A DNA stretch of 64,000 nucleotides. Origin: Convolutriloba macropyga. Its lineage: Eukaryota. The DNA is taken from assembly GCF_964194025.1 (NCBI RefSeq), contig NC_134472.1, positions 67,208,001 through 67,272,000 on the forward strand. The letters are read 5' to 3'. Shown one piece after another: positions 9,001 through 12,000 of the stretch; the first letter of the stretch is position 1; every line of letters begins with the position of its first letter. Made by a program: the position numbers.

Positions 9001-12000
9001 AAAAATATTTACGATCAAAAAATGAATAATTTATATTTTATAATTGTTTTTTACTGTAACTCTTCTTTAATTATTAAAAATTTATGATGTATTTATAATA
9101 TTTAAAGAAAATTTATAAGAAAGAATTTATTTCGCTAATGCGAGGACAAATTACGAGGTCCTGAGACCTTCTGTTTCAAAATGCCCATATACACACAACG
9201 GTATTCAAACTCACACAGCAAAAAACAAATTTCACTAACTCATTATTACTGACTAAATACGAGCTTTTCAATTTGTGACAAAAATCAGATATAATTTTAG
9301 TAGAACCGTTTTCTTCAAAAGGTTGTAATAATTTCCAACTCTTTCAGTTTGTTAAACAGAATTGCAGACCTATATCTTACAGAATCTTTGTGTTTTCTTT
9401 TTGCCAGAGCTAAGACTTAAAAACCCTTCTCTTTGGCGTCTAGCTGCCACTTTTGATTCTTCATACTTCAGCATATCATTGCAGTACTTTTCGCTGCGTA
9501 AATTATTAACTGATTTTAGAGAAAACTTGAGAAGCCACCTCTACGAGCTTCAAGTTTTCTCTAAAATCAGTTAATAATTTACACAGCGAAAAGTACTGCA
9601 ATGATATGCTGAAATACGAAGAATCAAAAAGGGCAACTAGACGCCAAAGTTCAAATACAGTGAGGATCCCAATTTGAATAAATAGAGGAATCATGCCTTT
9701 TGCGAAAATAGATGAAATAAGAAAATTTCTAGATGACATAAGAAAAAATAATTATAAACCTATAATTTAGTTATTTTTTGAAACTTGAATATTTTTTAAT
9801 ATTTTGTCTAGGGTATCGGTTCTCTAGACTAGACAATAGAAAACGTACTTATATGAATTAATAAATTATTTAAATAACTAAATGAATCAATCAAAATTAT
9901 TGTCATCAAAATACTCGTTATTATTGTTATCTTCATCCTCTGACAAAAAATAAACATTTTCAAACTCCGATTCAAAACAATTTTGCTGATGATAAACTTG
10001 CACAATAATTTCTCTTGATTTATATTTTGCACCAAAATGAAACTGCAGAGAGAAAATTCCAGGAAACACTGGAAGAATGTGAATATTTTCAGTCCATTCG
10101 GAAATTTGTTCATCGCTCAACTTAGATACATTAAATTGTTGTTCAGAACTTCCAAGAACAATAGGAGCTCGTTTATACATTTCAGCATCAATCTCTTGCG
10201 CTATTCGAGCTTTAGGCTCGACGGCAATTTTGAACAGAAAATCCTGTTCACCACTAACCAATAAATTGGTTAAATTACAGTTCACCTCCAAGTGAATGAC
10301 TTGACCGGAATGACATTTGATTACCCAATCTTCAACGTCCGCGCCTGAATTGGCTCCAATCACAACCGGTATTACATAATTTAAGCAAATAAAAGATTTT
10401 GAATCATTTGTACCGCTAAATAAATGGTTTGGCAAGTAAATACTTCCTCCTTCCAAACTTTCATCATTTTTAGAGCACCAAATCAAACTAAGTTTTCCAA
10501 GAAAACAACGGAGAAAACTGTTAGATGTCGATTGTGTTTTGTTTATAGCACCAGCTTTGTTATCCTTTTGCTCCATCGTCTGAAACTGATGCGGTTCAAA
10601 TTTCTCCAACAGAAATATGGCACGCTTTAGACTTCTTGGTTTGACCTCACAAAACGAGTCTCTGACTTGAACCAAAACCTCGAACTCTGTCAGATTTCTG
10701 AATGTCAAACATAAGTTAAAGTTTTCAGGTCTGTTTGCAGGCAGAAAATTGACGCTATCTACCAGTACAGAAGGCTGGACTCTCATTTTCAAGGAAAAAA
10801 AAGGAATGGTCAGTCCATGTATGGACAACTTGACAAAAGATAAGAATTCGGAAGATTCTAACAATCCCCACTTGTCCAAATCCACTTTCGAAGCGTCCAA
10901 ACAAAAACTAACTTCACAAATTTCACCCTTAGATAGGGTTTCCTTTTCTTGAACTACTGCAAACATGTCATGGTATTTAGAAATTGTGGTCAATTCGAAT
11001 TTTTCAATATCATGCAGCGCACTAAGACATACATTAACACATTTAGTCGTTCCGTAATACAAGCTTTGCAGAATAACACTGTCTTTTGTAACAAACTCTT
11101 TCACGCCAGCATGCTCCGAAAGTTGCGAATTTACTTCGACCGAAGGTTCCAGAGATCCCGTTGCCTTCGAAGGAAACCAGAAGCATTCCAAATAAGGAAT
11201 ATTGAATGAATGCCTGGTGATGAATTTAGAATTTTTGTTGAACAAGACCTCACTCGTGTAGTTCATTTCTTTCCAGTGAACTTTGTATCCTTCAATTGAG
11301 ATGTCTCCCGGTTCTAACTGTGTTACTAAAACAGTCCAACGCTTAGTTCGTACACGATCTCTAATATCTGCTTTTTAACTAATAACATATCTAAAGACAC
11401 TTAAAAAACAAGATTTGGCATCATTCAATATGAGCCAAAAAACAATATTAGCTAATTATTTGCACATAATTGATACAATATGCAGCGCCAGTGACGTTAG
11501 TAATGACAAACGATTGCTAAAGATTTGAGAAAAAAAATTATAAAAAATGAGGCTCAAACCGGATAGCGATAGATAATTGGACCTTCTCTCAGTCTAATAA
11601 TAAAAAAATATAAATTGTATTGGAGGGGAGCCTTTTATTAAGAGCTATTCTAACATGTTCGTAAACTCGGTCGTCATTTGCGGTCAAAGTAGAGAGAGCT
11701 AATTAAAGCGTCAAGCTTAATTCCTAAAAGTAACGAAAAGCTAGTAGTTTCGAAGAGTAATTTTTTTATAAAAGCTTTTAAAGTGGAGTGCGAAAATTAT
11801 GTTTGAGCAAAATTTTTTGATAATTCTTTCATGTGCGTTAGAGCATCTACTATTTTTAACATTCTGTATCCTGGAATTTTTCTTTCACCTATAATTGCTT
11901 TGAAAAGGTGATCCGAATTTCCTAAGTTGAATAGTTGCATTTTGGAATTTCTGAAAGGTCACCTATTTGCTTATAAGAAAAAGGTGATATTTTTCAAAAA

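What the first reader, a model, noticed from the sequence alone, without database searches (positions are those of the whole stretch)
9431..9649. 100-bp-arm hairpin downstream of TRAPPC9 with strand-biased G-U wobble mismatches
The arms differ at 6 positions. Five are C/A or A/C oppositions on the plus strand, which become G-U wobble pairs in a minus-strand RNA, and none is G-U on the plus strand. The minus strand is the TRAPPC9 sense strand, and the hairpin starts ~240 nt after the stop codon. This suggests selection on a long dsRNA stem (3'UTR element, hpRNA/endo-siRNA or miRNA precursor, ADAR/Staufen substrate) rather than neutral decay. The sample is small: 5/5 has about a 1/32 chance.
Basis: partly seen in the sequence, partly recalled or inferred. 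Interest (0 to 1): 0.65.

Follow-up and report, generated by a model that had tools for sequence, protein, structure and literature searches.

The report
Long palindromic hairpin behind TRAPPC9
A real 219-base near-perfect inverted repeat sits just behind the TRAPPC9 gene and would fold into a long double-stranded RNA if transcribed, but nothing found here shows it is more than a young, slowly decaying DNA palindrome.

Summary
Arms 9431-9530 and 9550-9649 are 94 of 100 complementary, with a 19-nt spacer. Five of the six mismatches are C/A oppositions on the plus strand, so they are G-U pairs in minus-strand RNA. The sixth is A/G, and none is G/T. The minus-strand RNA folds at -165.7 kcal/mol and the plus-strand RNA at -148.4. 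The minus strand is the TRAPPC9 sense strand, and 237 nt separate the stop codon from the hairpin.

The inference of selection is not established.
- 5 of 5 gives p = 0.031 one-sided and 0.0625 two-sided.
- A second, older inverted repeat in the TRAPPC9 intron shows 5:5.
- No Rfam family reaches its threshold.
- The window holds no second copy or target.
- No target-site duplication flanks the repeat.
- An ATTAAA signal lies before the hairpin and an AATAAA beyond it.

One outside sequence, P0005, is collinear with 9138-9535, which covers the left flank and the left arm. Against it the arm is no better conserved than the flank.

Best reading: a young, non-mobile inverted duplication decaying neutrally, which would act as a dsRNA substrate only if transcribed. 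Expression, small RNAs and genome-wide copy number could not be tested.

The parts
9431..9530 (-). Left arm of the inverted repeat on plus coordinates; it is the 3' arm of the hairpin in minus-strand RNA
9531..9549 (-). 19-nt spacer, the terminal loop; a few further pairs are predicted inside it
9550..9649 (-). Right arm of the inverted repeat; it is the 5' arm of the hairpin in minus-strand RNA
9138..9430 (.). Left flank. Together with the left arm and the start of the spacer (to 9535) it is collinear with the outside sequence P0005 in four blocks that alternate between two reading frames
9887..11266 (-). Last coding exon of TRAPPC9 (459-aa ORF); the stop codon is at 9887-9889
9795..9800 (-). 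ATTAAA poly(A)-signal variant on the minus strand, 87 nt after the stop and before the hairpin
   Evidence: motif scan only
9126..9131 (-). Canonical AATAAA on the minus strand, 756 nt after the stop and about 300 nt beyond the hairpin
   Evidence: motif scan only

Best explanation
The feature is a young, single-locus inverted duplication: a DNA palindrome with 100-bp arms and a 19-bp spacer. It lies in the non-coding stretch between the TRAPPC9 stop and the next minus-strand ORF. It most likely arose from a local fold-back or template-switch event during replication or repair, not from insertion of a 219-bp mobile unit, and it is decaying by point substitution. The five sense-strand G-U mismatches are then chance, perhaps helped by a mild excess of C-to-T and A-to-G changes on the sense (minus) strand. 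If a TRAPPC9 transcript runs on to the distal AATAAA, or the downstream gene's transcript starts upstream of the hairpin, the RNA folds into an almost perfect stem of about 100 bp. Such a stem is a default substrate for dsRNA-handling enzymes (Dicer, ADAR, Staufen-type binders). Shown here: the repeat, its mismatches, the fold energies, the gene context, the lack of a target-site duplication, and the shared flank in one outside sequence. Inferred: the way it formed, its neutrality, any transcription and any processing.
For: The inverted repeat and its six substitutions, with no indels, are. No direct repeat of 4 nt or more (or 7 nt or more with one mismatch) flanks the repeat within +/-4 nt of its ends. 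There is no second copy in the 64-kb window by blastn with word size 7. The arms hold no tandem sub-repeats and the region holds no tRNA. The only outside relative found among 5.8 billion proteins is P0005. It runs straight through the left junction and shares 293 nt of left flank, so it gives no sign of a 219-bp unit with a different flank. P0005 matches the left arm at 29 of 33 residues, the reverse complement of the right arm at 30 of 33, and the two arms match each other at 30 of 33. Most arm-to-arm differences therefore look as recent as the split from P0005. The arm is no better conserved than the flank (29 of 33 against 66 of 81, p = 0.58). The neighbourhood shows other rearrangement: a decayed partial copy of the TRAPPC9 last exon at 8407-8892(-). 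The non-coding flank 8015-9430 has A/T 1.22 and C/G 1.23 on the plus strand, meaning T and G excess on the sense strand, the same direction as the mismatches. From that skew I estimate (my own transition-only arithmetic, made by no tool) that about 54% of transitions should fall in the observed direction, so 5 of 5 has p of about 0.047. Passages of PMC2927911 describe an A-to-G over T-to-C excess on the non-transcribed strand that continues past 3' ends, in vertebrates.
Against: All five transition mismatches fall in the direction that keeps pairing in the sense-strand RNA. The older intron inverted repeat shows no general bias (5:5), so mutational asymmetry alone is a weak explanation and chance at p of about 0.03-0.06 is not comfortable. 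There are no indels between the arms, while at least three frame changes separate P0005 from the window over about 400 nt. The estimated skew correction is small. Whether P0005 comes from an orthologous locus or from a longer repeat unit is unknown (could not be made), and its right arm is unseen. The vertebrate mutation asymmetry is an analogy only for this genome.
Confidence: 0.5

Rival explanations
1. It is a selected long-dsRNA element in an extended TRAPPC9 3'UTR or a separate minus-strand transcript: an hpRNA-type endo-siRNA precursor or an ADAR/Staufen-type regulatory stem. Selection on the sense-strand RNA would tolerate only substitutions that keep G-U pairing.
For: Five of five transition mismatches are G-U in minus-strand RNA, which is 17.3 kcal/mol more stable than plus-strand RNA. 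A canonical AATAAA lies beyond the hairpin at 9126-9131(-). There are no indels between the arms. The left arm is present in a second public sequence. Passages of PMC10317233 describe a new Drosophila hpRNA born inside the 3'UTR of an existing non-coding transcript.
Against: Two-sided p is 0.0625. The arm is no better conserved than its flank against P0005 (p = 0.58). The window holds no sequence homologous to the arms that could be a target. In the protein search the arm-spanning 77-aa ORF found only itself and P0005, which is the same non-coding stretch, out of 3 candidates. An ATTAAA 87 nt after the stop could end the mRNA before the hairpin. One U-C mismatch remains in the stem.
Confidence: 0.17
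2. It is a miniature inverted-repeat or foldback-type non-autonomous DNA transposon of 219 bp that inserted behind TRAPPC9 and is now decaying.
For: Its size, lack of coding capacity and end-to-end inverted arms fit. The same genome region holds another palindromic repeat with a partial relative nearby, at 11865-12173 and 12863-12961. Equal distances among the P0005 arm and the two window arms (29, 30 and 30 of 33) would also fit copies spawned from a master with perfect arms.
Against: No target-site duplication was found. The window holds no second copy. The one outside relative shares the same left junction and 293 nt of flank, which a separate insertion of a 219-bp unit would not. The arms hold no tandem sub-repeats of the kind I recall for foldback elements.
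Confidence: 0.2
3. It is a microRNA precursor of the unusually long invertebrate kind.
For: It is a highly paired long hairpin. The abstract of PMC12553114 reports giant, highly base-paired miRNA hairpins in invertebrates.
Against: None of the 20 Rfam matches with E up to 1 reaches its gathering score. The best, MIR8007, scores 81.4 bits against a threshold of 195, and scores almost the same on the plus strand (79.5). A 100-bp near-perfect stem without the usual bulges fits a Dicer-2-type substrate better than a Drosha/Dicer-1 one (recalled).
Confidence: 0.04
4. It is an assembly or library artefact, a fold-back chimera.
For: Palindromes can be made by amplification or missed adapters (recalled).
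Against: The arms differ by six substitutions and no indels. The repeat lies in the middle of the contig between intact unique flanks. The left arm and its flank are seen independently in another public sequence.
Confidence: 0.02

Closest known systems
Drosophila hpRNA loci (endo-siRNA hairpins), e.g. Dsim-hp88, which arose inside the 3'UTR of a non-coding transcript (PMC10317233, passages seen)
   Same: A long, near-perfect inverted repeat that could ride on an existing transcription unit. The stem is long enough for Dicer-2-type processing.
   Different: By the passages read, hpRNAs are defined by Dcr-2-dependent siRNAs, primary transcripts that rise in dcr-2 mutants, and arms homologous to a target gene. 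None of these is shown here, and no target homology was found in the window.
MITEs / foldback-type non-autonomous DNA transposons (features recalled)
   Same: Short and non-coding, with inverted arms that fold into a hairpin.
   Different: There is no target-site duplication, a single copy in the window, and the one outside relative shares the flank.
Inverted repeat pairs in 3'UTRs that form ADAR/Staufen-bound dsRNA, such as inverted Alu pairs (recalled, not looked up)
   Same: A long intramolecular dsRNA lying 3' of a stop codon on the sense strand.
   Different: Here it is one compact palindrome rather than two separate repeat insertions. Whether the 3'UTR includes it is unknown.
Giant miRNA hairpins of invertebrates (PMC12553114, abstract and outline seen)
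   Same: A highly base-paired hairpin of long length.
   Different: There is no match to a conserved miRNA family at threshold.

Membership tests
MITE / foldback transposon | Terminal inverted repeats | tested here: met
   Arms of 100 nt, 94% complementary.
MITE / foldback transposon | Target-site duplication flanking the element | tested here: not met
   No exact direct repeat of 4 nt or more, and none of 7 nt or more with one mismatch, within +/-4 nt of the ends.
MITE / foldback transposon | Multiple copies with unrelated flanks | tested here: inconclusive
   The 64-kb window holds one copy. The only outside relative shares the left flank. The source genome could not be searched. The prokaryotic genome-contig scan with a 30-mer gave 0 hits.
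MITE / foldback transposon | Tandem sub-repeats inside the arms (foldback type; feature recalled) | tested here: not met
   Tandem Repeats Finder finds none in 9431-9649.
hpRNA (endo-siRNA hairpin) | Long inverted repeat giving an extended dsRNA stem | tested here: met
   The minimum-energy fold of the minus strand is one stem, interrupted only by a single 1x1 internal loop, at -165.7 kcal/mol.
hpRNA (endo-siRNA hairpin) | Arms homologous to a target gene | tested here: inconclusive
   No homology in the window. The arm-spanning 77-aa ORF finds only itself and P0005. The rest of the genome was not searchable.
hpRNA (endo-siRNA hairpin) | Transcription through both arms and Dicer-2-dependent small RNAs of about 21 nt | not testable with these tools
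   No expression data are available. Only poly(A)-signal motifs could be located.
miRNA precursor (Rfam families) | Score at or above a family's gathering threshold | tested here: not met
   0 of the 20 listed matches reach their threshold. The best is 81.4 bits against 195, with near-equal scores on both strands.
3'UTR dsRNA element (ADAR/Staufen substrate) | Lies within the mature 3'UTR | tested here: inconclusive
   An ATTAAA lies 87 nt after the stop, before the hairpin, and an AATAAA lies 756 nt after the stop, beyond it. These are motif matches only.
3'UTR dsRNA element (ADAR/Staufen substrate) | A-to-I editing or protein binding on the stem | not testable with these tools
   This needs RNA data.

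The most novel reading that the evidence does not exclude
The hairpin is a lineage-specific, functional dsRNA module on the TRAPPC9 sense transcript, an hpRNA or editing substrate. Its stem is kept by selection: the only transitions tolerated are those that leave G-U pairs. At least two of them (9444 and 9497, polarised by P0005 under parsimony) are A-to-G on the sense strand, which could be read as genomic fixation of sites that were once edited.
Probability: 0.12. Interest if true: 0.5.

Novelty: new member of a known kind. Interest (0 to 1): 0.22.

Why it matters
If the stem is transcribed and processed, it would be an endogenous dsRNA source attached to a housekeeping trafficking gene, in an organism whose nearest sampled TRAPPC9 is only 45% identical. 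That would be a fresh example of hairpin-RNA birth on an existing transcription unit. If it is only a young palindrome, it is ordinary. It then mainly serves as a caution that a 5-of-5 wobble bias is not evidence of selection without copies, controls or expression data.

Tried and rejected
- Rfam at permissive E-values gave only generic long-hairpin matches below threshold, on both strands.
- Searches for other copies or a target in the window found none.
- The target-site duplication scan found nothing.
- Tandem sub-repeats and tRNA genes: none.
- The bacterial promoter/terminator scan is irrelevant for a eukaryote and is not used.
- The PDB sequence search with the last exon gave 0 hits at E up to 0.01, so the exon's identity rests on P0003.
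- The genome-contig scan with a 30-nt arm stretch gave 0 hits, as expected for a prokaryotic collection.
- The listing of cluster members for P0001, P0004 and P0005 was meant to show whether P0005 lies at an orthologous locus. It could not be made, so that question stays open.
- The 525-aa downstream ORF has no Pfam family and no relative but itself among 1.84 billion representatives, so it adds no context.
- Supplements of the papers were not opened.

Full report
**What is there**

The window is 64,000 bases with no N and about 35% G+C. At the reported place, the repeat finder gives an inverted repeat with arms 9431-9530 and 9550-9649. The arms are 100 nt long and 94% complementary, with 19 nt between them. 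It is the longest and cleanest of the 7 inverted pairs reported for the whole window.

A script lists six mismatched oppositions and no indels:
- 9444 C / 9636 A
- 9449 A / 9631 G
- 9450 C / 9630 A
- 9463 A / 9617 C
- 9466 C / 9614 A
- 9497 C / 9583 A

Five are C/A-type on the plus strand, which become G-U in minus-strand RNA. One is A/G, which becomes U-C on the minus strand. None is G/T. The minus-strand RNA folds into a single stem with one 1x1 internal loop at -165.7 kcal/mol. The plus-strand RNA has five more interruptions and folds at -148.4 kcal/mol. In both cases 0 of 200 shuffles fold as well.

**Context**

- ORF 14549-15910(-) carries the Pfam TRAPPC9-Trs120 domain (33.1 bits against a cut-off of 24.7).
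- ORF 9887-11266(-) has no Pfam or PDB hit of its own. It aligns at 45% identity to residues 718-1156 of P0003, a 1172-aa protein that carries PF08626. It is therefore the last coding exon, and its stop at 9887-9889 is credible.
- I searched the exons one by one and did not build or search a joined TRAPPC9 model.
- The hairpin begins 237 nt after the stop on the sense strand.
- The next long minus-strand ORF is 6437-8014 (525 aa, rich in P, S, N and Q). It has no Pfam family and no relative other than itself among 1.84 billion representatives.
- On the minus strand an ATTAAA lies 87 nt after the stop, before the hairpin. The only canonical AATAAA in the gap lies 756 nt after the stop, at 9126-9131, beyond the hairpin. 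Sequence alone cannot say whether the mature 3'UTR includes the stem.
- I do not take this contig for human. It is AT-rich, it codes the last 459 residues of TRAPPC9 in one exon, and its closest TRAPPC9 relatives outside its own cluster are 45% identical.

**Is it a known RNA?**

No. The first Rfam scan (8000-11000) gave 3 matches with E up to 1. The narrower scan gave 20, all below their gathering scores. They are long-hairpin families from unrelated organisms, and the best one (MIR8007; 81.4 bits against a threshold of 195) scores 79.5 on the opposite strand. These are generic matches of one long hairpin to another.

**Is it a mobile element?**

- The window holds no second copy (blastn with word size 7).
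- No flanking direct repeat of 4 nt or more lies within +/-4 nt of the ends.
- The arms hold no tandem sub-repeats, and the region holds no tRNA.
- A protein-database search with the spurious 77-aa ORF that runs through the right arm found, among 3 candidates, itself and one other entry, P0005 (133 aa).
- tblastn shows that P0005 is collinear with plus-strand 9138-9535 in four blocks that alternate between two frames, with 97 of 116 residues identical. It therefore runs through 293 nt of left flank, straight across the left junction, through the whole left arm and into the spacer.
- So the one outside relative is not a 219-bp unit in a new place. It is either the orthologous locus of a close relative or a copy of a longer duplicated stretch.
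- The look-up that could have told these apart was unavailable. No eukaryotic DNA collection was open. The scan of the prokaryotic collection found nothing.

**What P0005 says about the arms**

Over the 33 arm codons P0005 matches the left arm at 29, the reverse complement of the right arm at 30, and the two arms match each other at 30. This pattern is star-like, so most arm-to-arm differences are about as young as the split from P0005.

The polarity of the mismatches under parsimony is my reading of the codons:
- At 9444 and 9497, P0005 carries the state of the right arm. These two mismatches therefore read as plus-strand T-to-C in the left arm, which is A-to-G on the sense strand. Position 9497 sits in a CpG, so parallel CpG decay is an alternative there.
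- At 9450, P0005 agrees with the left arm.
- At 9449 it differs from both arms.
- Positions 9463 and 9466 are silent in the translation.

The arm is no better conserved than the flank: 29 of 33 against 66 of 81 residues, Fisher p = 0.58. This is weak evidence against arm-specific constraint.

**The strand bias**

Every transition in a palindrome gives either a C/A or a G/T opposition.
- Without strand asymmetry, 5 of 5 in a named direction has p = 0.031. In either direction it has p = 0.0625.
- The non-coding flank 8015-9430 has A/T 1.22 and C/G 1.23 on the plus strand. That is an excess of T and G on the sense strand, in the direction expected if sense-strand C-to-T and A-to-G changes outnumber their complements.
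- Such an asymmetry, extending past 3' ends, is described for vertebrates in passages of PMC2927911. For this genome it is an analogy only.
- A transition-only estimate of my own from the skew puts about 54% of transitions in the observed direction, which gives p of about 0.047.
- As a control, a second and older inverted repeat lies inside the TRAPPC9 intron (11865-11992 / 12045-12173). It has 21 mismatches and 1 indel over 128 aligned pairs, with 5 G/T: 5 A/C. Comparing the two repeats by Fisher's test gives p = 0.10.
- The bias is suggestive and no more.

**Best reading**

A young, non-mobile inverted duplication is decaying by substitution (confidence 0.5). It would be a dsRNA substrate by default if a minus-strand transcript crosses it. 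The neighbourhood shows other rearrangement: a decayed partial copy of the TRAPPC9 last exon lies at 8407-8892(-).

Rivals:
- a selected hpRNA or 3'UTR dsRNA element (0.17);
- a MITE or foldback element (0.20);
- a long miRNA precursor (0.04);
- an artefact (0.02).

Passages of PMC10317233 show that new hpRNAs can arise inside existing 3'UTRs. They also show that hpRNAs are recognised by Dicer-2-dependent siRNAs and target homology. Neither is available here.

**What stayed unchecked**

Transcription, poly(A) sites, small RNAs, editing, genome-wide copy number, the right arm of the P0005 locus and the origin of P0005 all stayed unchecked. Paper supplements were not opened. For PMC12553114 I saw the search listing, the abstract and the outline. 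For PMC2927911 and PMC10317233 I saw the listed passages only.

Noticed in passing
window 8407-8892 (-): A decayed partial copy of the TRAPPC9 last exon (about residues 103-188 of the 459-aa exon ORF, 64-66% identical in the two best pieces) lies downstream of the real exon on the same strand, with extra sequence between the pieces.
   Followed up: partly
window 11865-12173, with a partial relative at 12863-12961: A second long inverted repeat lies in the TRAPPC9 intron. Its arms are about 128 nt, with 21 mismatches and 1 indel. Transitions are 5 G/T : 5 A/C on the plus strand, so there is no strand bias. A roughly 70%-identical partial copy lies nearby, so it looks like a small repeat family.
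   Followed up: partly
window about 41.7-43.7 kb (-): Remains of a Ty1/copia-type LTR retroelement. The zinc knuckle, Pol beta-barrel (weak), integrase core (just under the Pfam cut-off) and RVT_2 domains lie on four separate short ORFs in gag-protease-integrase-RT order. The coding region is therefore interrupted several times. I did not count or classify the interruptions, and I describe it only.
   Followed up: partly
window 6437-8014 (-): A 525-aa ORF rich in P, S, N and Q sits in a 44% G+C island. It has no Pfam family and no relative but itself among 1.84 billion representatives. It may be a lineage-specific gene or a large exon of one.
   Followed up: partly
window 54964-55401 (-): An exon-like ORF with the Ribosomal_L2_C domain (69.9 bits), probably part of the uL2/RpL8 gene.
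   Followed up: no
window 9138-9535 (+): In another public contig this non-coding stretch is open as a 133-aa ORF (P0005). In the window the same stretch is split between two frames and holds in-frame stops. It is probably a spurious ORF call, but it is the only handle on a related locus.
   Followed up: yes
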